A DNA stretch of 64,000 bases from Candidatus Woesearchaeota archaeon. Its GTDB lineage: Archaea; Nanobdellota; Nanobdellia; Woesearchaeales; BM511. The translations under genes and the position numbers were made by a program. Shown piece after piece: positions 29,372-40,101 of this stretch (position 1 is its first letter; every line of letters starts with the position of its first letter). The DNA is taken from positions 16,192-80,191 of the forward strand of contig PKTL01000043.1 in NCBI GenBank assembly GCA_002867475.1, read 5' to 3'. The notes below the pieces were generated by a model, which did not search any database, was not told the DNA's origin, and saw only the letters and a program-made list of their open reading frames with translations.

Positions 29372-29668
29372 ATGACTGGTCAAGGAGATGATATTAGAGA
29401 TAAATTCAATTCTTTAGTTAGTAATCTCCAAAAATTAGGGTTTTCTTTTGATGAAATACTTTCCATGATGAGTTCTGATTTTGAATCTGATAAAACCCTT
29501 ATTCCCTTAGAAGTATTTCGAACCCGAGACCTTGGAGCGCTTGAAAGCTTAACTGTTTTTCTAAAAGAGAAAAAGGACATGAAATTCTCTGAAATAGGCA
29601 AAGCCTTGGAAAGAGATCAAAGAACTATCTGGACAACATACAATAAAGCAAAGAAGAAACTAGAATGA
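29372..29668 (+). CDS. Sigma-70 region 4-like / LuxR-type HTH DNA-binding protein
   Basis: IPLEVFRTRDLGALESLTVFLKEKKDMKFSEIGKALERDQRTIWTTYNKAKKKLE matches the sigma70_r4 pattern; ATGA overlap with the giant gene. Confidence 0.55.
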   Translation: MTGQGDDIRDKFNSLVSNLQKLGFSFDEILSMMSSDFESDKTLIPLEVFRTRDLGALESLTVFLKEKKDMKFSEIGKALERDQRTIWTTYNKAKKKLE

Positions 29669-32600
29669 GAACCAATAAAACCATAATCAAAATATTGATG
29701 ATTCTTCTAGTTAGTGTTATCTTTTCTCAAATAGGTTTGAGTTTTAATTTCAATTGCACTTCAGATAGTGTTCTAACAGAATTTAGTGGATCTGACACTG
29801 TGAATTGGATTATTGAAAATGATACTATATGTGAAAATGTATACATTGAACTTTCAAGAAATATTACAATAAGTACAAATGGAAGATTAGAATTTAGAAA
29901 TGTAACACTTGACATGAATGTTTTAGGAAATGATGGAAATATAGGAATAGAAGTTGAACCAAATAGCAATGGAATATTCATTTATGATTCAAGAATTCAA
30001 AGTATGACAGCTAATAATTATTTCTGGATTGTGAATCAAAGTTTTATAATGGATAGAACTAATGTAAGTAATTGTGGATATGCAATACCTAGCAATAACC
30101 CTGGAATAAATTTATTTTATGGAAATTCAAAAATTAATAATTCTAAAATAAATGAAGGTTTCATCAATTTATATATTAATTCAGAAAATAATACTATTGA
30201 GAATACACAAATATCAGATTCGAATTATTATCCAATCTTCTTTGCAACATCCAATAATAAAATAATAAATTCAAACATTACTAATGGAACAAGAGGTATT
30301 TATTTTGATTCTAATGTAAATAACATTACTATTAATAAAATAATTATAAAAGATATTTCTAGTTCCGCATATTATCTTGAATTCACTAATAATGACCAAA
30401 TATTAATTAATAATTCTATAATTAATATTACAAGTATAAATCATGGAATTTATGACTCGGCAAATACTTTAAAATTAACAATTATAAATTCGAAAATTGA
30501 TAATAATTTTGATAAAAAAAGTATCACAATAGATAACGAATTTTCAAATATTAAAATATATAATTCTACTATTGATAAAAATAAAATTACCATAACAGGA
30601 ACTCAAGCCAATATCACATTCAAGGAATATGTTAATTTTCATGTTAATGGATCTGATGGAGCTGATTATTTGAATGATGTTGTTGTGAAGTTATATGATA
30701 ATAGCACTAATTCATACGGACCAACAGCAAATTATACATTAACAACTGGAACACCCTATGATCCAGGTTACACTGCGATGCTTACAGTTATAGATATGAT
30801 AATGTATAATGGATATAACACCTCATACAGCCCATACAATGTTACATTCAACAAAACAGGTTATAAGTTCTATTGGAACAATAGTTATTTCTTCAACAAA
30901 TCAGAAACGCATTACGTAACCCTTGACCCAATAACACCTCTAACATGTGAGGGATTATTTTCTGATAATGGAAATGTTATAATCACTGAAGACTTAACTT
31001 GTGAAAACTTAACAATAATAGCACAAAACGTTACAGTCAACAACAGTGCAAGGTTGATATTGAAAAACACCACGCTAATAATAAATGAAACAGCCATAGG
31101 ACATCCATCAATAATCAATATAACAAATGAAGCAGCAGGTATTGAATTACAAAACAGTACGATAAAAGGTCTTAATGATAATGATTATGATTTTATATCT
31201 TATTCAAATACATTAATAAATCATAGTTTAATAAAAGATGTTGGCAGTTCAACAACTATAAATGGATTACATATATACACAAATAATGCGATTATCATAA
31301 ATTCTAGATTTGAAAATAATTATGAAGACCTAGTATTAAAAGGAGATAACTTTACATTAGAAAATCTTGAACTCATAAACTCATACAATAACGGAATAAG
31401 AATTGGAGCTGATTCATTTAATCCTTTAACAAATAGTAAATTCAAAAATATAAGTATAAATAGTTCAGGAAAAGGAATAATAATACAGGATAATTCAAAT
31501 AATCATTATTTTGAAAAATTATTTATAACAAATGATGAAATTGACACAGGAGAGGTATTAATATCCTTAAACAAAGCATATAATTTAACTTTTAATGATT
31601 CAATTTTTAACATATCACAATCTACTGGAAGCAGTGCATTTTCTATTGATTTTAATTCTGCTAATTTTACATTAATAAATTCAAAAATCTATAATCTTGG
31701 AGAAAGTGCAACCGAAATAAAACTCATTGGAAATTCATTTATTAATATAATAAACTCTTCTTTTGATAGATCAAAGATAGAATATGTTTCTTTCACAGGG
31801 AATATCTCTTTCTATGAATATATTAAATTTAAGATATATAATGACAGTGTCTATACAGAGGCGTTATTTGATGTTAACCTAACCTTGAAAGACAACATAT
31901 CCAAAAATGAAAAATATAATCTTACAACTGATGAAAGTGGTTACACAAACACCATTTTAGTTCTTGATGGAGTTGGAAACAGCTCATATGATGGAGTGCA
32001 TTATAATTATGCATACAGCCCTTATAATATAACCTTTGAAAAGGAAGGTTACATTACTAAAAACTTAACTTTCTACCTTAATGAATCAACAACTTTTGAA
32101 GCTAACATATCAATGATAGCTGAACCATCTTCAGATTACATTTTAGTGGAACTGATCAATCCTATAACTATAAGTGAGAACAAGACACCTACAGTTACGT
32201 TCAAGGTTAATGGGAGCATGACAGGATACTTTAATTGCTCATTAAGAACAAATATCACAGGTCATGATTATGAATATAATGAAAGTGTGGTAAATAATAC
32301 TCCTACAAGCCTAACCTTTGCTACTGACTTACCTACAGGATCCCATAAGTATTGGGTTAACTGCTCAAATAATGAGATAAATAATGTTTCAAATAACATA
32401 ACATTATTGATTGTTGAAGAGAACCCTTCAATAAACTTGTTAAGCCCAAAAAATAATAACGTAACAACAAATACTAGCCAAATATTCACTTTTAATTTCA
32501 CAGATACTTATTCAAGTACGGCAAACTGTTCGCTTATAATAAACGGATCCATATACAGGTATAACAGCACTGTTTTGAACAACACACCAACAGATATAAA

Positions 32601-35600
32601 CCAGGAATTAAGTATTGGAAACTATAACTGGACTATTAACTGTACAGACATATATGGTAATATTGGAAGCGATGATGGAAGAAACCTGACAATAGAAGCG
32701 TTAGATCAAACAGGACCAACACCGATAACCTATTCACCAACAACTGGCACAAGTAGAGAATATGATAAATACAGGCAAGATTATTTCAATGTTACATGGA
32801 CAGATATTAGTGGAATAGAAAATGTAAGAATCTATAATAATTTTTCAAATGGAATATGGAATAATTATGAAGTTTCTAACATCAGCAACTCATATTATTA
32901 TAATACCACTAATATCAAACCAGGAAGATATGCTTGGTATATGAATGCAAGTGATACAGAAGGAAACTCGAACTGGACAGGATACATAGATTATATAATA
33001 ACAAAAAGCACAAACGATCAATTGATATTAACAATAAATGGAACAGAATCAAGCACCCCATTTTTGCAAAGAAAAACTTCTCTTTGGATAAATGGTTCAA
33101 GCAATAACCAAGACATAGGATTGACACTTTTTGTAGATTATGAAAATTTGAGCTATGGAATAAATGTCAGCAACTTTTATTTTTTCAATGAATCAGGATT
33201 GAAGATTGTTAATTTAACAATGGATGCAAATGATAGATTTGAAATAACGAATAAAGTTCTTACAGTCCAAGTTAATGACACTATCCCTCCAGCAAAGATA
33301 AATAATCTTCAAGCAACCCACATAACTTATGATATGATAAACTGGACATGGACACTTCCATCAGGAGAGGATGATATCAATAAGGCTGAAGTTTGGATAG
33401 ATGGAGAGCTAGTTGAAAACATAACGAACCCTTATGGACAAACCTATTTCGATTACTCAACCACTCAAAACACACTTGTTAATATTAGTGTTAGACTAGT
33501 GGATGATTATAATAATACTGGCGAAGAATTTAATACGTCTAATAGGACATTAAGGATAAATTATGCTCCAACAACATACTTAGAAAAACCAGATAACAAC
33601 ACCCAGATAAATAATAGTTTGAGTGTTACTTTCAATTTCACAGCATATGATGAGCTTCCCATCTATTTAAATTGCTCATTAAAAGTTATGGATAATATAG
33701 ATAGTAATATAACAATCTTTAACTTATCAGCCTATAGCGGAACACCTAGAATCTATACAAATAGTTCAATATTTTCATATAATCATTCATACTCTTGGTC
33801 TGTGAACTGTACAGATGGTGAATATTATAATATCTCAGACACATATTATTTCAACATAGCAGACACTTTACCTCCTGCAAAGATAAATAATCTTACTAAC
33901 TTAACTGGAGACAGTTGGATATATATCACTTGGTACAATCCTTCTACTGATTTCAATCACACAGAAGTTTGGTTTAATGATTCATATTATGACACTTTTA
34001 ATGACACATATCAAACCTTAAACATTACAGGATTGGATGACAATACAATTTATAATTTTAACATCACAGCGTATGACATATATAATAATGGTAACACAAC
34101 ATTGTTTAATATAACTACTGAAGTTGGGGATTATTCTGCCCCCTATATCAACTATCCTCAAATGCCTGAAAGTGGAACAATAACAAATAATGAAAGCGTG
34201 ATTTTCAATATCACTGCAAGTGATGATTCAGGAGGAACAATATCCTGTAATCTTACAATATATAATTCATCATCAACCATGATTGAATCCCAAACATTGA
34301 ACATATTAAGCGGCACATATGGATCAACAACTGTAAATCTTCCTGATGGAGAATATCATTGGAATTTTACCTGTGTTGATTATGATAGCAATCAAGCAAA
34401 TAGCACAACCTACCTATTGACTGTTGATACAACTCCACCATTTTATAGCGACCTATGGAATAATACTGATGGAGGATCAACATTTAATGAATCATATGAT
34501 TATCTTTTCAAGATCAGATGGAATGATACGATTACAGAAATTACAAATGTTTGGTTCGAAAACAACTTAACAAATAATCCTCTAGTAAATAGCACACCTT
34601 CACAAAATGGAAACTTATACACATATTCACCATCTACACCTCTTAAGCCAGGAACATATGCATATAAATGGTATGCAAGAGACAATGCAAATAATTTCAA
34701 TAATACAGAACTATTCACATTCACAATCAATAAAGCTGAACCAGCCTTAATGCTAAAATTAGATGGATCAGAACAGAACATCACTTATCTTGAAAGAAAG
34801 GATAACGTGACAGTTTATGCAATGATCACTAAGCCTAGCACAGAAACAATAACTGTGACATTACAGAACAGCTCAGGAACTTTTAGCATAGATCAATATA
34901 CAACCTTGCAATTTAATGAAGTAGGAATCTCAAACATCACTGCATCTTTTGAAGGAAACGAAAATTACACATCAAAAAACATAACGTATTATGTGAATGT
35001 TTCTGATAATGTAGGGCCTGAAGATGTGGTTATAGATCAAACAGTTATTACTACTTCTTATTTTTTCATACAATGGAATGATTCAACATCTGATGATTTC
35101 AATCATACAGAAGTATTGATAGATAATATTAATTATGACCATGGAGCTGATACTTTTATTAACCTTAATACTCCATCAGAGACAGAATATGAAGTGCTTA
35201 TAAGACATTTTGATATATATGGAAATAATGGTTCATGGACAAATATCACAATAACTACATTATCAAACATTCCAAGTATAGAATTATTATATCCAACAGA
35301 TTATTTGCTCATAAGCAACATGAAATCTGTTAATCTAACATTCAATGTCACAGATGAATCAGATTATGTTAATTGCACAGCTTATATTTATGGAAGAACT
35401 AATACATCCTTCTCAAAAACATATAACAATCTCTACACACAGGTTGGAACCCCTTATACTTTCAATACAGGAGAAATATTAGAATATAACAATACCTATA
35501 ATTGGTCAGTAAATTGTAGCGATCCTTACAATTACAGTGTTTCAAACACCCAAGCTTTTGGTATTATAGATACAAATCCTCCAATAATATCAAACATCAA

Positions 35601-38600
35601 CATCTATAACATAACAGATTCCAGCGCGATAATCAATTGGACAACAAACGAACCTTCAAACTATAGCATTGAACTAAAAGACATTCCAAGAATAGACTTT
35701 TCAACACTTGATACAACTCATGCTAGACTGATAGAAGGATTATCACCTTCAACATATTATGATATCAACATAACAGCATGTGACCTATATAATAATTGCA
35801 TAAAAGATGATTCAAAAAATCTGACAACAACCAATTTCGTATATGATATTTCAGTATCTTTGATCAACCCAATAGCTGATGCTTGGATACCCTATAACAA
35901 CAACATAACTTTTAATTTTTCAGTGAATGGAAATGTTGAGATAATGAGCTGTAACCTATCTATTGATGATAACAGAAGCGAATACTTCAACAAGATAAAT
36001 ACAACAATAGAAAATTATAGTACAACCTTCTACAATCTAGAATTTAAATACCATAATTGGAGCGTTACCTGCAATCATTCTGATAATGTATGGAGCGATA
36101 TTAGATATTTCAACCTAACAAACGATTACGATAACGACACTTATAATATTGGAACAGGAACAAATGAAGACTGTGATGATACAAACCCAAATATACACCC
36201 AGGAGTTGCAGATAACACAGATGATAATATAGATAACGATTGTGATGGAGACATTGATGAAGATTATAGTCCACCAAGTTCTAGTGGAGGAGGAAGCGTA
36301 AGTTTGCCTCCTGAAGAAGAAATTATTGAAGAAGAACCAAAAAATGAAACCGTTGAAGAAATAATAAATGAAACAATTGAGATAACTGAAGAGATTCCAG
36401 GAATAATAAATGAGACAAATGAGACTTCTGTTTGGGATTTCATAAATGAAAGCATAAATTTGTTCAATGAAACAGATATACCTGAAGAGATAAATGAAAC
36501 TGTTGAAGAAATCAAAAATGAAACAATTGAAGAAATCATAAATGAAACAATAGTAATAGAAAATGATGATAACTCAACAGATACTGATGATGAGTTGGTT
36601 GAGAAAAATGAATCGATATTTGAACTTCCTTCAAAACTTGATCTTGAAACTCCAAAAAAGGAAGCTGAAACACCTGATGAGAAAAAGGAGAAATCCACTA
36701 GTTCAGGAATAACTGGAATAACTGATAGGATAGGTGTAAAAAAGGAATATTACCATAAAGAAAATAATACTGTCATAAATTTCACGATAAAAAATAAAGG
36801 TATAGTGCCTTACAAAAAACTTGGCATTTTCATAAATATACCAAAATTCATAGCTGAAAGCACTGATAAGATGATAGGTAATTTCTATATAATCAGAAAA
36901 GATCCACAGATAGCTTATGTTTTCACAAATTTTAGCGGAAAAACATCAAAGACTATAGAGTTTCAAATAAAAGACAGACTTCTTAGTGATGAAGAGATTG
37001 AAAAGATCACATACTATACTAATTCAGAGATATCAAAGGAATATGTAGATTCCTTGAAAAAGAAAGCAAACGAGACGTACGATGCTATTAAGATTAAAAA
37101 AGAGATAATCCAATATGATGATAAGACAGAGTTCACAATAGAGCTTGAACCTATAAACGAGACAGAGAACGTCACATTATATTTGGATATTCCTAAATGC
37201 TTAGCTGAAAAGATCGAAGAGATAGAATTCGAACTAGAAGATTATGAGATCCTTGATGATGACCCTTTAATAGCATTTAATTTTGCAACCCTAACTGACA
37301 CTAAAACCTTGAATTTTGAAGTGTTAAAAGCAATCGACCCAGATTGCTGGGAGCTAGTAAAAACCACACCGATCGCTGAAAAGATAAAAGATAAGATAAT
37401 TGTAAAAGATGAGAAAAGCATGTTCTTCTCTATTGGCATCCTTCTTTTTGTACTCTTATCTACACTATCATTCAACTATTTGCAAATGCAAAGCAAGAAA
37501 AAGCATGGTAAAGGAATATTAGAAAAACTTGAATTTGGAATGGTCGAAATAATCTTAATACTAATAATAACTCTTAACATAATGGATTTCTTCAAGCTTC
37601 TAAATCCGGATCTTGATTTTGCAAAAAAGATTCTTTCATGGTCTCTTCTTGGAATACTTCTATATGAAGCAAGGCTTGAAAAAATATTTTATGGCACTGA
37701 AAGAAGATTTGAAACCTTACTTTTAATTATCGCTAATTTCTTCATGTTCTCAAGAGTGTTTGTTGATGTAGTCTTTGTATTATATAATGAGATTGTTGAG
37801 AAAAGGCTTGATTCATATGTTATTCACCTATATCAATTCGTGATTGACTTTGAACTTTCCCACCCTGGATTAATTGTAAGCATCGGAAGCATCATAGGAT
37901 TTAGTATGTTAATAATCCTTTCCTTCCTTGATGTTTTCAAAAATGTGAAGAAACCGAGCCTGCTTGAAGTACTGCATGTTGATGGAAAACCGAAAGGAAT
38001 AGGACAAGGTATCAAGAGATTCCTTATAAGTATGATGCTTTACTTGACATTTTTCATAGTGTTCTTCAATTTCTTCATGGAATGGCTTGCTATAAGTGTT
38101 GATGCTGCATTGATGGTTGTTGCAATAGTAGTATATGGAATAAGGTTTATAGTTAAGCAATATCATCATTACCATGAGGATCATATAATAAACAAGATAG
38201 GTAATATAGGTGAAGAATTTTATGAACAGTTCATAAATCTTTTCAAGTACAAGCACACAGTTTTCTTTGGCCTTGCTGGAATACTTGTACTTCACTTAAT
38301 AGTTGATATTGGAAATTTCATAATGCCTTTCATATTCAATTTTGAAGACATGATGTATTTCATACAAAGCGGAGTACCACACTTAAGCCTTCTTCATATA
38401 CTGATGAATCTTTATAGCCAAGATATATTAGCAAACATTGTCATAACCCTAAATTATTTGCTAAATATAAGTTTCATAATAATGATTTTGATATTCCCAG
38501 CATACATCTGGTATGACACATATAAGAATCATATAATAAATTTTAGAAGGTGGATCGTCGCATTTTTTTACATCGCAGTATCTAACTATCTAATCTCCCC

Positions 38601-39204
38601 TCTAGTGAAACTATCAAGCATAAGCAATGCTGACATATTAGGTGTTGATCTAATATTCAAGTCAAGCGTTACAGGCGATCCTTTGATGACACTACTAATA
38701 AGCATAGGTGTTGGAATAGTTGCATTTATCCTATCTTATAATCTTATATTGAAAACAGTGATAAAACTCATTGGATTTATTCCCGTATTAATATTTATAA
38801 TGATATATGTCACTTATTATGTGAATAGTTGGATAAGCAATCTTTTCCCACAGATTGTTGCTGCTGTTGCTAGTGCTACTTTGATCAATCTTTTCCTAGG
38901 AATACTTATGAGCTTCTTCATGACTGCGATAGTCATATTCTACATAGGTTCATTCATATATTTCATAAAACTCATATACACTCAATGGTTCGTGAAAAAA
39001 TATGCTTTTGCACACCTTGCAAAAAAATACAAGGATGTTATAAAAGAGCACTGCAAGACAGATCAAGATAAGCAAGTGATCTATAAAGCGATAAAATACA
39101 TTGAGTATATGAGGAAAAGAGAAGTGTCTGACCTTGAGATTGAAGAAACTTTAGCAAATAAAGGTATGAAAGAAGAAGTGATAAAGGACATCATATACCT
39201 ATAA
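29665..39204 (+). CDS. Giant (3179 aa) membrane-anchored surface protein: signal peptide, parallel beta-helix (PbH1) repeats, FN3-like domains, Cys-rich D/C motif, acidic NET repeats, C-terminal polytopic membrane domain
   Basis: Uninterrupted 9.5 kb ORF. N-terminus MRTNKTIIKILMILLVSVIFSQIGLSF. NxxIxNN-type beta-helix repeats (NSKINNSKINEGFINLYINSENNTIENTQISDS ... NGIRIGADS ... GKGIIIQDNSNN). Numerous N-x-S/T sequons. FN3-like PPAKINNL ... WTWTLP segments. DCDDTNPNIHPGVADNTDDNIDNDCDGDIDED at nt 36169-36267. EEIINETIE repeats. About 12 or more TM helices from nt ~37420. Confidence 0.85.
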   Translation: MRTNKTIIKILMILLVSVIFSQIGLSFNFNCTSDSVLTEFSGSDTVNWIIENDTICENVYIELSRNITISTNGRLEFRNVTLDMNVLGNDGNIGIEVEPNSNGIFIYDSRIQSMTANNYFWIVNQSFIMDRTNVSNCGYAIPSNNPGINLFYGNSKINNSKINEGFINLYINSENNTIENTQISDSNYYPIFFATSNNKIINSNITNGTRGIYFDSNVNNITINKIIIKDISSSAYYLEFTNNDQILINNSIINITSINHGIYDSANTLKLTIINSKIDNNFDKKSITIDNEFSNIKIYNSTIDKNKITITGTQANITFKEYVNFHVNGSDGADYLNDVVVKLYDNSTNSYGPTANYTLTTGTPYDPGYTAMLTVIDMIMYNGYNTSYSPYNVTFNKTGYKFYWNNSYFFNKSETHYVTLDPITPLTCEGLFSDNGNVIITEDLTCENLTIIAQNVTVNNSARLILKNTTLIINETAIGHPSIINITNEAAGIELQNSTIKGLNDNDYDFISYSNTLINHSLIKDVGSSTTINGLHIYTNNAIIINSRFENNYEDLVLKGDNFTLENLELINSYNNGIRIGADSFNPLTNSKFKNISINSSGKGIIIQDNSNNHYFEKLFITNDEIDTGEVLISLNKAYNLTFNDSIFNISQSTGSSAFSIDFNSANFTLINSKIYNLGESATEIKLIGNSFINIINSSFDRSKIEYVSFTGNISFYEYIKFKIYNDSVYTEALFDVNLTLKDNISKNEKYNLTTDESGYTNTILVLDGVGNSSYDGVHYNYAYSPYNITFEKEGYITKNLTFYLNESTTFEANISMIAEPSSDYILVELINPITISENKTPTVTFKVNGSMTGYFNCSLRTNITGHDYEYNESVVNNTPTSLTFATDLPTGSHKYWVNCSNNEINNVSNNITLLIVEENPSINLLSPKNNNVTTNTSQIFTFNFTDTYSSTANCSLIINGSIYRYNSTVLNNTPTDINQELSIGNYNWTINCTDIYGNIGSDDGRNLTIEALDQTGPTPITYSPTTGTSREYDKYRQDYFNVTWTDISGIENVRIYNNFSNGIWNNYEVSNISNSYYYNTTNIKPGRYAWYMNASDTEGNSNWTGYIDYIITKSTNDQLILTINGTESSTPFLQRKTSLWINGSSNNQDIGLTLFVDYENLSYGINVSNFYFFNESGLKIVNLTMDANDRFEITNKVLTVQVNDTIPPAKINNLQATHITYDMINWTWTLPSGEDDINKAEVWIDGELVENITNPYGQTYFDYSTTQNTLVNISVRLVDDYNNTGEEFNTSNRTLRINYAPTTYLEKPDNNTQINNSLSVTFNFTAYDELPIYLNCSLKVMDNIDSNITIFNLSAYSGTPRIYTNSSIFSYNHSYSWSVNCTDGEYYNISDTYYFNIADTLPPAKINNLTNLTGDSWIYITWYNPSTDFNHTEVWFNDSYYDTFNDTYQTLNITGLDDNTIYNFNITAYDIYNNGNTTLFNITTEVGDYSAPYINYPQMPESGTITNNESVIFNITASDDSGGTISCNLTIYNSSSTMIESQTLNILSGTYGSTTVNLPDGEYHWNFTCVDYDSNQANSTTYLLTVDTTPPFYSDLWNNTDGGSTFNESYDYLFKIRWNDTITEITNVWFENNLTNNPLVNSTPSQNGNLYTYSPSTPLKPGTYAYKWYARDNANNFNNTELFTFTINKAEPALMLKLDGSEQNITYLERKDNVTVYAMITKPSTETITVTLQNSSGTFSIDQYTTLQFNEVGISNITASFEGNENYTSKNITYYVNVSDNVGPEDVVIDQTVITTSYFFIQWNDSTSDDFNHTEVLIDNINYDHGADTFINLNTPSETEYEVLIRHFDIYGNNGSWTNITITTLSNIPSIELLYPTDYLLISNMKSVNLTFNVTDESDYVNCTAYIYGRTNTSFSKTYNNLYTQVGTPYTFNTGEILEYNNTYNWSVNCSDPYNYSVSNTQAFGIIDTNPPIISNINIYNITDSSAIINWTTNEPSNYSIELKDIPRIDFSTLDTTHARLIEGLSPSTYYDINITACDLYNNCIKDDSKNLTTTNFVYDISVSLINPIADAWIPYNNNITFNFSVNGNVEIMSCNLSIDDNRSEYFNKINTTIENYSTTFYNLEFKYHNWSVTCNHSDNVWSDIRYFNLTNDYDNDTYNIGTGTNEDCDDTNPNIHPGVADNTDDNIDNDCDGDIDEDYSPPSSSGGGSVSLPPEEEIIEEEPKNETVEEIINETIEITEEIPGIINETNETSVWDFINESINLFNETDIPEEINETVEEIKNETIEEIINETIVIENDDNSTDTDDELVEKNESIFELPSKLDLETPKKEAETPDEKKEKSTSSGITGITDRIGVKKEYYHKENNTVINFTIKNKGIVPYKKLGIFINIPKFIAESTDKMIGNFYIIRKDPQIAYVFTNFSGKTSKTIEFQIKDRLLSDEEIEKITYYTNSEISKEYVDSLKKKANETYDAIKIKKEIIQYDDKTEFTIELEPINETENVTLYLDIPKCLAEKIEEIEFELEDYEILDDDPLIAFNFATLTDTKTLNFEVLKAIDPDCWELVKTTPIAEKIKDKIIVKDEKSMFFSIGILLFVLLSTLSFNYLQMQSKKKHGKGILEKLEFGMVEIILILIITLNIMDFFKLLNPDLDFAKKILSWSLLGILLYEARLEKIFYGTERRFETLLLIIANFFMFSRVFVDVVFVLYNEIVEKRLDSYVIHLYQFVIDFELSHPGLIVSIGSIIGFSMLIILSFLDVFKNVKKPSLLEVLHVDGKPKGIGQGIKRFLISMMLYLTFFIVFFNFFMEWLAISVDAALMVVAIVVYGIRFIVKQYHHYHEDHIINKIGNIGEEFYEQFINLFKYKHTVFFGLAGILVLHLIVDIGNFIMPFIFNFEDMMYFIQSGVPHLSLLHILMNLYSQDILANIVITLNYLLNISFIIMILIFPAYIWYDTYKNHIINFRRWIVAFFYIAVSNYLISPLVKLSSISNADILGVDLIFKSSVTGDPLMTLLISIGVGIVAFILSYNLILKTVIKLIGFIPVLIFIMIYVTYYVNSWISNLFPQIVAAVASATLINLFLGILMSFFMTAIVIFYIGSFIYFIKLIYTQWFVKKYAFAHLAKKYKDVIKEHCKTDQDKQVIYKAIKYIEYMRKREVSDLEIEETLANKGMKEEVIKDIIYL

Positions 39205-40101
39205 ATCTAATTTATTTAACATATTGAAAGTTTCTTTATCAAATCTAGAAAAAGCAAACCACTTCTTTCCAAGATCTTTAAGTGATGCTCCAAAATGAAA
39301 CACTTCTTTTTCATCTATGATTAAAAACCTATCATGTGAATCTTTAAATTCCTTAATTTCTATATTTGGATTTTGAGAATTATATTTTTTTAGGTCAAGA
39401 ATTAATTTCTTTGTTAAATTTTTTGTTAAAATAGTTGCTTTAACATTTTTATCTCTTTTACTTAAAATAGTTAAAACAGAATCATCAATGTAATTATCTA
39501 TTAATATTATTGATTTATTAGCACTTCTAATAATATCAGATACTAATTTATATGCATCAAAAATTTCTCCATCATAAAATATTCATTTATTTAAATTAAT
39601 ATTATTATTTTCTAATTTACTAAATATTTCCTTAAAATTTTTATCATGAATCAATTGCTTTGATTCAATATGATCTAATCTATTATTAATATTAAAATTA
39701 TTTGATATGATTTTTCTTAATTCTACAAAAGTATCTATTATTTGAAGACTTACAGTTATTGCAACTTTACTTCTTAAAACAGAAGAAAGCATAGCAACAC
39801 CTTGTTCTGTAAAAACATAAGGAAGAGAACCACCCAACTGCTGGTTAGAAGGTATCGCAAAATGCGATACCTTTTCTTTTGTGATCACAGATTGTGACCT
39901 TAAATTTTCAATTTCTTCTAAAGTTAATTGAAACATAAATCTTGAAGGAAACCTTTCAATATTTCTTTTTACTTGTTCTCTAATACGGATGGGTTTTACT
40001 TGATATAATTCTGCTAAATCCTTATCAAACATTACTTGTTTTCCCCTTATTTTATAAATTTTATTTTTTATATTATTCTCTAATATGATTTCATTAATCA
40101 T
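39199..40101 (-). pseudogene. ORF6N-domain (KilA-N superfamily) gene interrupted by an in-frame TGA at 39583-39585
   Basis: N-terminal part KIRGKQVMFDKDLAELYQVKPIRIREQVKRNIERFPSRFMFQLT ... GGSLPYVFTEQGVAMLSSVLRS is an ORF6N domain. After the TGA the same frame stays open for 127 codons with no start codon (IFYDGEIFDAYKL ... HDRFLIIDEKEVFHFGASLKDLGKKWFAFS), resembling the usual C-terminal region of this family. Confidence 0.55.

What the first reader, a model, noticed from the sequence alone, without database searches (positions are those of the whole stretch)
39199..40101. ORF6N-family gene with an in-frame TGA: nonsense pseudogene or read-through
The ORF6N domain ORF ends at TGA 39583-39585 (...NINLNK*), but the same frame stays open for 127 more codons with no start codon. 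That stretch encodes a plausible conserved C-terminal region (IFYDGEIFDAY ... HDRFLIIDEKEVFHFGASLKDLGKKWFAFS). The region ends at TAG 39199-39201, overlapping the 3' end of the giant gene by 6 nt. This is either a very recent nonsense mutation in a mobile-element gene, consistent with island decay, or a programmed stop-codon read-through.
Basis: partly seen in the sequence, partly recalled or inferred. Interest (0 to 1): 0.55.

Follow-up and report, generated by a model that had tools for sequence, protein, structure and literature searches.

The report
Nonsense-broken ORF6N defence-candidate gene
A single G-to-T change has put a stop codon at a conserved glycine between the two domains of a widespread candidate anti-virus gene in a small archaeal genome, cutting off its second domain; this looks like an ordinary, recent gene-inactivating mutation and not programmed read-through.

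Summary
On the minus strand, a 172-codon ORF6N reading frame (40101..39586) ends at TGA 39585..39583. The same frame stays open for 127 more codons to TAG 39201..39199, which overlaps the end of the 3179-aa gene by 6 nt.

More than 8000 single-chain proteins of about 290-300 aa cover both halves at 60-66% identity. In them the TGA position is a nearly invariant glycine, so the simplest origin is GGA to TGA.

The two halves tile one PADLOC model, the phage-defence candidate PDC-S05. The C-terminal part is not ORF6C. It is a confidently predicted phospholipase-D-fold domain with an H-x-R-x4-D...G-A-S-x-K motif, and that motif is intact here.

TGA is a normal terminator elsewhere in the window. 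I found no stimulatory RNA structure, no Rfam match and no suppressor tRNA. None of about 95 related full-length loci has a stop at this site; one has a TAG at a different position. There is no usable start codon after the TGA.

The best reading is a recent nonsense mutation that removes the PLD-like domain and leaves an ORF6N-plus-helix protein about as long as natural short ORF6N proteins. I found no integrase or other mobile-element genes nearby. Read-through, a sequencing or polymorphism artefact, and a relic of a TGA=Gly donor remain minor possibilities. Interest is low.

The parts
39583..40101 (-). Truncated reading frame as it stands: 172 codons plus TGA. It encodes the ORF6N domain and a long helical linker.
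   Evidence: Pfam PF10543 ORF6N E=6.1e-33. PADLOC PDC-S05 model PDLC04869, positions 10-168 of 306, E=1.5e-57.
39778..40065 (-). ORF6N (KilA-N-like) DNA-binding domain, residues 13-108. It includes a lineage-specific insertion, VITKEKVSHF, in a loop that varies across the family.
   Evidence: AF2 pLDDT is about 82-89 outside the loop.
39610..39768 (-). Long helical linker, residues 112-164 (two helices, probably a coiled coil or dimerisation stalk).
   Evidence: DSSP helices 112-134 and 136-164 in the AF2 model.
39583..39585 (-). In-frame TGA at the position of the nearly invariant hinge glycine (K/Q-G-I-F-F/Y-D-G). Inferred ancestor codon GGA, so a G-to-T change at window 39585 on the coding strand.
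   Evidence: Gly in 23 of 23 aligned homologues, 118 of 120 and 90 of 101 related loci, with codon GGA in 22. The hinge has low pLDDT at residues 168-178.
39202..39582 (-). 127 open codons after the stop: a complete PLD-fold domain, now cut off from translation.
   Evidence: PADLOC PDLC04869 positions 174-300 of 306, E=5.1e-52. 62-76% identity to homologues. AF2 pLDDT 88.9, pTM 0.81. All top-50 Foldseek PDB hits are PLD superfamily, TMq up to 0.68.
39277..39336 (-). HKD-like motif of the PLD-fold domain, HDRFLIIDEKEVFHFGASLK (H256-x-R258-x4-D263-x7-G271-A-S273-x-K275). All family-invariant residues are intact.
39199..39204 (.). Interlocked stop codons of the ancestral full-length gene (TAG, minus strand) and the 3179-aa gene (TAA, plus strand): a 6-nt convergent overlap.
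39199..39303 (-). 34-aa remnant ORF starting at the first in-frame GTG. The JGI annotation calls it a gene, but it is only the tail of the PLD-like domain.

Best explanation
This is a long-form ORF6N-PLD-like gene of the PADLOC phage-defence candidate family PDC-S05, in a small AT-rich archaeal genome that is probably DPANN. A single G-to-T substitution (GGA Gly173 to TGA), exactly at the flexible hinge between the helical linker and the C-terminal domain, has broken the gene.

What is shown: the intact family is one polypeptide made of an N-terminal ORF6N DNA-binding domain, a long helical stalk, and a C-terminal PLD-fold domain with an H-x-R-x4-D...G-A-S-x-K motif. Here translation should stop after residue 172. 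The PLD-like domain has no start codon of its own.

What is inferred: the event is evolutionarily recent. The downstream 127 codons are still open and keep every family-invariant residue, which limits neutral divergence since the stop to less than about 13%. The product is a 172-aa ORF6N-plus-stalk protein, about the length of natural short ORF6N proteins. It may still bind DNA, but whatever activity needs the PLD-like domain is lost.

The family's mechanism is also inferred: DNA recognition by ORF6N, dimerisation through the stalk, and a nuclease-like or sensor PLD-fold module. That fits its placement inside type I R-M operons.
For: - **Homologues span the stop.** More than 8000 homologues, the best 120 of them 282-415 aa single chains, cover 96-100% of the fused frame at 53-64% identity by BLASTP, or 61-66% in the alignment.
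- **The stop sits on a conserved glycine.** Gly aligns with the TGA in 23 of 23, 118 of 120 and 90 of 101 loci, with GGA used in 22.
- **Both halves belong to one model.** They tile PADLOC model PDLC04869 at positions 10-168 and 174-300.
- **The post-stop region is a real domain.** It is more conserved than the N-terminal half (62.6% vs 51.5% mean identity to 96 loci) and folds confidently as a PLD-superfamily domain.
- **TGA is a genuine terminator in this genome.** 14 of 46 long ORFs end in TGA, the 3179-codon gene has no in-frame TGA, and genes ending in TGA have only 2-9 trailing codons.
- **No recoding signals.** Fold z = -0.02, no Rfam family, no tRNA.
- **No recurrence.** Of about 95 full-length related loci, none has a stop at this codon. 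One (L121) has a TAG elsewhere, so sporadic nonsense decay does occur in the family.
- **No start codon.** No ATG, GTG or TTG for 93 codons after the stop.
- **Seen twice.** The same TGA is in a second assembly (JGI Ga0102541_1042388) that differs from the window by one SNP in 20.5 kb.
- **Limit on age.** 6.0% of possible point changes in the downstream part create stops, so an open frame implies fewer than about 48 neutral substitutions at 95%.
- **Short forms exist.** Natural short ORF6N proteins of 170-190 aa end near the same hinge (PADLOC short models PDLC04856 and PDLC04849).
Against: - No reads were available, so a consensus error or a minority or majority allele cannot be excluded. The two assemblies may share reads.
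- No close relative exists (best 66% identity), so the mutation cannot be dated by comparison.
- The stop falls exactly at a domain boundary and on a Gly codon. A mutation-only model explains that as coincidence: 5 of 44 one-step-to-TGA codons are GGA, p about 0.11.
- The copy has somewhat more changes at family-conserved columns than members of similar divergence (8 vs 3.5 expected, z = 1.9), spread over both halves. The decay could therefore be older, or selection could have been relaxed before the stop arose.
Confidence: 0.8

Rival explanations
1. Programmed or leaky UGA read-through. One gene makes a short ORF6N-only isoform and, at lower level, a full ORF6N-PLD-like isoform.
For: The stop lies exactly at the inter-domain hinge. 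The downstream domain is fully intact. Short ORF6N proteins ending at the same place exist naturally, so both isoforms would be plausible proteins.
Against: There is no stimulatory structure (z = -0.02), no Rfam or SECIS-like match and no suppressor tRNA in the window. TGA terminates other genes cleanly. None of about 95 related loci has a stop at this codon, so nothing is conserved. An intact downstream region is equally expected for a recent mutation.
Confidence: 0.04
2. Sequencing or assembly error, or strain polymorphism. The functional allele in the population is GGA and the gene is intact in most cells.
For: The pristine downstream domain fits this. The population is heterogeneous: there is one SNP between two assemblies of the same 20.5 kb.
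Against: Two assemblies both carry TGA. Single-base substitution errors are rare in consensus sequence built from short reads at reasonable depth (general knowledge). The independence of the two assemblies is unknown.
Confidence: 0.09
3. Relic of a donor that uses genetic code 25 (TGA = Gly, as in Gracilibacteria and Absconditabacteria). The gene arrived by horizontal transfer already carrying TGA for this glycine and was dead on arrival in a code-11 archaeon.
For: The TGA sits on an invariant Gly. The family is transferred across domains on a large scale, with 50-65% identity between Archaea and many bacterial phyla. The gene is more AT-rich than its surroundings (22.8% vs 31% GC). One TGA among 8 Gly codons is about what such a donor could give (my estimate, not tested).
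Against: An in-situ GGA-to-TGA change lands on Gly by chance with p about 0.11. None of about 95 full-length related loci has an in-frame TGA. The best matches by identity include DPANN archaea and Altiarchaeales, and none is labelled as a code-25 lineage. Synonymous codon use fits the host's preferences (higher score than 95% of host ORFs).
Confidence: 0.03
4. Genome-wide reassignment of TGA to a sense codon in this organism, so the gene is simply intact.
For: None beyond the single in-frame TGA.
Against: 14 of 46 long ORFs end at TGA. The 3179-codon gene and about 20 other long ORFs have no in-frame TGA. This is the only frame in the window where a TGA separates two long homologous segments.
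Confidence: 0.01

Closest known systems
PADLOC phage defence candidate PDC-S05 (model PDLC04869; 'guilt-by-embedding' candidates, bioRxiv 10.1101/2024.01.29.577857)
   Same: Both halves of the frame match this single 306-position model (E=1.5e-57 and 5.1e-52). Relatives sit between HsdM and HsdS of type I R-M systems in about 10 of 72 genome loci. DPANN archaea are reported to be enriched in PDC systems, and PDC-S05 was one of the systems for which that paper built a phylogenetic tree (PMC12988326).
   Different: This copy is interrupted by a stop and stands alone among housekeeping genes. The only PDC-S05 tested for phage protection that I found is described as having a Virulence_RhuM domain (about 1000-fold drop in plating efficiency for T7 and T5, bioRxiv 10.1101/2024.09.26.614923). 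This subfamily matches Pfam ORF6N, not RhuM, so the activity is not shown for it.
ORF6N domain proteins (Pfam PF10543; KilA-N-like DNA-binding, phage anti-repressor-like)
   Same: The N-terminal domain matches over the full model, 1-86 (E=6.1e-33). An intact homologue (P0004) matches PHROG anti-repressor families through its N-terminal region.
   Different: The classical partner domain ORF6C is absent. The partner here is a PLD-fold domain with no Pfam model.
PLD-superfamily single-HKD proteins (Nuc/NucT, Zucchini) and non-catalytic PLD-like domains (FAM83 DUF1669, MITD1, TrmBL2 C-terminal domain)
   Same: The predicted fold of the 127 aa matches them (E down to 1.5e-6, TMq 0.5-0.68). The motif spacing H-x-(K/R)-x4-D...G-x-S is similar. 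TrmBL2 has the same overall plan of a DNA-binding domain, a helix and a PLD-like domain.
   Different: The canonical Lys of HxK is Arg, the spacer is one residue longer, and the Asn is replaced (GASLK). No Pfam family, PLDc included, matched at E up to 1. Catalytic competence is unknown.
Ordinary nonsense pseudogenes of defence or mobile genes
   Same: A single premature stop in an otherwise intact gene. A second, independent example exists in the family (L121, TAG).
   Different: Nothing notable, apart from the stop falling exactly at the domain boundary.

Membership tests
ORF6N domain family (PF10543) | Match to the Pfam model above its gathering score | tested here: met
   113.4 bits against a cut-off of 27.8, model positions 1-86 of 86
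   No Pfam hit to the 127-aa region at E up to 1 apart from a chance DUF3568 match. The fold is PLD-like.
PADLOC PDC-S05 | Sequence match to a PDC-S05 HMM over its full length | tested here: met
   N-terminal part covers positions 10-168 and the post-stop part 174-300 of PDLC04869. The intact homologue P0004 scores E=6.5e-118.
PADLOC PDC-S05 | Intact single open reading frame | tested here: not met
   In-frame TGA at 39583-39585
PADLOC PDC-S05 | Embedded in or next to known defence systems | tested here: not met
   Neighbours in the window are archease, HD, flavodoxin, radical SAM and a giant surface-type protein. Among relatives, HsdM is upstream in 10 of 72 and HsdS downstream in 9 of 73.
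PADLOC PDC-S05 | Protects against phage | not testable with these tools
   Only literature on a RhuM-type representative (bioRxiv 10.1101/2024.09.26.614923)
PLD (HKD) superfamily | PLD fold | tested here: met
   AF2 pLDDT 88.9. All top-50 Foldseek PDB matches are PLD-superfamily chains, TMq up to 0.68.
PLD (HKD) superfamily | Canonical HxK(x)4D(x)6G(S/G)xN catalytic motif | tested here: not met
   The motif here is H-D-R-x4-D-x7-G-A-S-L-K, with Arg for Lys, a spacer one residue longer and no Asn
Programmed stop-codon read-through / selenocysteine recoding | Recoding signal (downstream structure or SECIS) and conservation of the stop among relatives | tested here: not met
   z = -0.02. No Rfam match. 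0 of about 95 related loci have a stop at this codon.
Alternative genetic code with TGA as sense (tables 4 and 25) | TGA used in-frame across genes and not as a terminator | tested here: not met

The most novel reading that the evidence does not exclude
The hinge TGA is partly read through (or is a fossil of a TGA=Gly donor), so one locus yields both a short ORF6N-only protein and a full ORF6N-PLD-like protein. That would be a two-isoform switch for a candidate defence gene in a DPANN archaeon, mirroring the natural short and long forms of the family.
Probability: 0.04. Interest if true: 0.6.

Novelty: new member of a known kind. Interest (0 to 1): 0.15.

Why it matters
It matters little on its own. 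It should be annotated as a nonsense-interrupted (pseudo)gene of the PDC-S05 candidate defence family, not as a 172-aa ORF6N gene plus a 34-aa orphan ORF.

Two modest points have wider use. First, the so-far unnamed C-terminal domain of this very widespread, cross-domain family is a PLD-fold module with an HxR variant motif, which gives a testable idea of how these candidates act. Second, a stop at the domain hinge produces a protein about as long as natural short ORF6N proteins, which suggests a simple route by which short forms could arise from long forms.

Tried and rejected
- **Genome-wide TGA recoding:** rejected from stop-codon usage.
- **Recoding signals:** RNA fold of the 111 nt around and after the stop, Rfam scan at permissive E-values (only a sub-threshold ctRNA hit on the opposite strand) and a tRNA scan of the window all gave nothing.
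- **Insertion scars or repeats flanking the gene:** only short, AT-rich, imperfect matches.
- **Sequence-profile search of the PDB:** no meaningful hit. Fold search was needed instead.
- **Closer relatives to date the mutation:** the metagenome scan gave at most 58% identity by tblastn. The protein database gave at most 64% by BLASTP, or 66% in the alignment. Only the same contig holds the exact 172-aa product.
- **Codon-usage test for foreign origin:** the gene follows host synonymous preferences, so the test does not discriminate.
- **Literature on ORF6N:** no functional study of this architecture found.
Full report
**Observation**

On the minus strand an ORF starts at ATG 40101 and runs 172 codons to TGA (39585..39583). 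The same frame then stays open for 127 codons to TAG (39201..39199). The 3179-aa plus-strand gene ends at 39204, so the two convergent frames overlap by 6 nt, CTATAA.

After the TGA there is no in-frame ATG, GTG or TTG until a GTG at codon 94, which leaves only a 34-aa ORF. The JGI annotation of the same contig calls that ORF a gene. The open frame is not chance: 0 of 20000 shuffles of the 381 nt remain open, and the other two frames have 15 and 25 stops.

**What the two halves are**

The N-terminal 172 aa match Pfam ORF6N over the whole model (E=6.1e-33). The 127 aa after the stop match no Pfam family, and in particular not ORF6C.

A search with the fused frame returned more than 8000 significant proteins. 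The best 120 are single chains of 282-415 aa (most about 290-300) that cover 96-100% of the fused frame at 53-64% identity. They come from Woesearchaeota, Nanoarchaeota, Aenigmarchaeota, Altiarchaeales and also Campylobacterota.

Genome scans add Bacteroidota, Methanosarcinales, CPR bacteria, Desulfobacterota and many others at 47-63% identity. The family is therefore unusually conserved and moves between domains.

In the alignment the TGA aligns with the Gly of a K/Q-G-I-F-F/Y-D-G motif. Gly is there in 23 of 23, 118 of 120 and 90 of 101 related loci, with GGA used 22 times. GGA to TGA is a single G-to-T change.

Both halves tile one PADLOC model, PDC-S05 PDLC04869: positions 10-168 (E=1.5e-57) and 174-300 (E=5.1e-52).

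**Structure**

An AlphaFold2 model of the fused protein shows four parts:
- an ORF6N domain;
- two long helices (residues 112-164);
- a low-confidence hinge (residues 168-178) that contains the stop;
- a C-terminal alpha/beta domain with pLDDT about 90.

Modelled alone, the 127 aa reach pLDDT 88.9 and pTM 0.81. Every one of the top 50 Foldseek PDB matches is a PLD-superfamily chain, with E down to 1.5e-6 and TMq up to 0.68. They include NucT, vaccinia F13, PLD1/2/3/4, Zucchini, FAM83 DUF1669, MITD1 and the C-terminal domain of TrmBL2.

The family-invariant motif H256-D-R258-x4-D263-x7-G271-A-S273-L-K275 (window 39336..39277) resembles the HKD motif. It has Arg for Lys and one extra spacer residue. 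Fold membership is supported, but catalytic competence is open.

**Is TGA read as sense here?**

No. Of 46 long ORFs, 14 end at TGA, and the 3179-codon gene has no in-frame TGA. Where TGA ends a gene, only 2-9 codons follow before the next stop. This locus is the only one where TGA separates two long homologous segments.

The gene content (GatD, CDC48, archease) points to an archaeon. The best homologues suggest a DPANN lineage, though I did not test the taxonomy formally.

**Is there programmed read-through?**

I found no sign of it.
- The 111 nt around and after the stop fold no better than shuffles (z = -0.02).
- A permissive Rfam scan finds nothing relevant.
- The window has no tRNA gene.
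- Among about 95 full-length related loci none has a stop at this codon. Two apparent stops (L012, L060) lie upstream of the start. One real in-frame TAG occurs inside the PLD-like domain of L121.

Sporadic nonsense decay therefore occurs in this family, and a conserved recoding site does not.

**How old is the stop?**

The post-stop part is, if anything, more similar to relatives than the N-terminal part (62.6% vs 51.5% mean identity to 96 loci). It keeps all invariant residues. Because 6.0% of possible point changes in it would create a stop, an open frame implies fewer than about 48 neutral substitutions, or about 13%, at the 95% level.

The copy does carry more changes at family-conserved columns than members of similar overall divergence (8 vs 3.5 expected, z = 1.9; only 1 of 36 comparable members reaches 8). 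These are spread over both halves (9 and 7 in the earlier count). This is a weak hint of relaxed constraint on the whole gene, or of AT pressure (gene GC 22.8% vs 31% for the window). It is not decisive.

**Is the base call real?**

A JGI metagenome contig (3300007102, Ga0102541_1042388, 54.6 kb) encodes exactly the same 172-aa product. It differs from the window at one position in 20.5 kb, at window 30566 inside the giant gene. Two assemblies therefore agree on the TGA. I cannot tell whether they share reads, and the SNP shows strain heterogeneity, so a polymorphism remains possible.

**Context**

Locally the gene sits between archease and the giant gene, among housekeeping genes. There is no integrase and no convincing flanking repeats. 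'Island decay' is not supported for this window.

Across 80 genome loci of relatives, the immediate neighbours are as follows:
- a roughly 695-aa topoisomerase III upstream in 15 of 72 loci, with DUF1896 downstream in 5 (my reading: this resembles Bacteroidota conjugative elements);
- HsdM upstream in 10 of 72 and HsdS downstream in 9 of 73;
- occasionally Cas3/Csy1, Schlafen/AlbA_2 or HEPN.

This matches how PADLOC's PDC candidates were defined, as genes embedded in BREX, DISARM or type I R-M loci (bioRxiv 10.1101/2024.01.29.577857). DPANN archaea are reported to be enriched in PDCs, and PDC-S05 was one of the systems for which that paper built a phylogenetic tree (PMC12988326). A PDC-S05 representative protected E. 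coli about 1000-fold against T7 and T5, but it is described as a RhuM-domain protein, so this does not transfer directly to the present subfamily (bioRxiv 10.1101/2024.09.26.614923).

**Consequence**

As it stands, the gene should yield an ORF6N-plus-stalk protein of 172 aa. Natural short ORF6N proteins of 170-190 aa end within about 20 residues of the same point. PADLOC also holds short PDC-S05 models of 177 and 183 positions that match this part. The truncated product is therefore plausibly stable and may still bind DNA. Any activity that depends on the PLD-like domain is lost. These last statements are inference.

**Rivals**

- **Read-through:** about 4%, for the reasons above.
- **Error or polymorphism:** about 9%.
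- **Relic of a code-25 donor:** about 3%. TGA encodes exactly Gly in genetic code 25, so the gene might have arrived from a Gracilibacteria- or Absconditabacteria-type donor. However, 5 of the 44 codons one step from TGA in the intact gene are GGA, so Gly is hit by chance with p about 0.11. No related locus carries an in-frame TGA. The gene's synonymous codon use fits the host.

**Verdict**

This is an ordinary, probably recent nonsense mutation in a divergent member of a known candidate-defence family. Interest is low (0.15). The family-level points (a PLD-fold effector or sensor domain with an HxR motif, and a stop at the hinge mimicking natural short forms) are the only parts worth carrying forward.

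Noticed in passing
L006, L045, L104, L106, L120; L108, L112, L113, L119: Long-form ORF6N-PLD-like genes occur as tandem pairs in five related loci. In four others a full copy is accompanied by C-terminal-only fragments (three fragments in L108). This could reflect recombination or decay among paralogues.
   Followed up: no
L121:304-1149 (stop at 1051): A Lentimicrobiaceae MAG copy has an in-frame TAG inside the PLD-like domain (IIDEN*VYHIGASLKDLG). This is a second, independent nonsense-interrupted member.
   Followed up: partly
L122:5137-5997 and L124:5100-5921: In a Woesearchaeota genome and a Sulfuricurvum genome, a 273-286 aa tyrosine recombinase ends 3-80 nt upstream of the ORF6N-PLD-like gene, in the same orientation.
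   Followed up: no
L051-L062, L070, L075, L080, L081, L098 (upstream of the match): In 15 of 72 genome loci, mostly Bacteroidota, a roughly 695-aa topoisomerase III ends 0-33 nt before the ORF6N gene. DUF1896 follows in 5. This resembles the layout of a conjugative element.
   Followed up: partly
window 30566: The only difference between the window and JGI contig Ga0102541_1042388 over 20.5 kb: TCT (Ser) in the window against TAT (Tyr) in the contig, at codon 301 of the 3179-aa gene. This is evidence of strain heterogeneity.
   Followed up: partly
window 29665-39204 (+): A giant 3179-aa ORF, rich in Asn, Ser and Thr, with many predicted transmembrane-looking segments near its C-terminus and only a weak MopE-like Pfam hit. 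It is probably a DPANN-type giant surface protein.
   Followed up: no
window 39199-40101: The ORF6N gene is distinctly more AT-rich (22.8% GC) than the window (31%) and than any 2-kb window in it (25.7-34.7%). This is typical of horizontally acquired defence genes.
   Followed up: partly
L129-L208 (IMG/VR): About 20 viral contigs carry long-form copies at 34-48% identity. Many more carry short, N-terminal-only ORF6N genes at about 50% identity.
   Followed up: no
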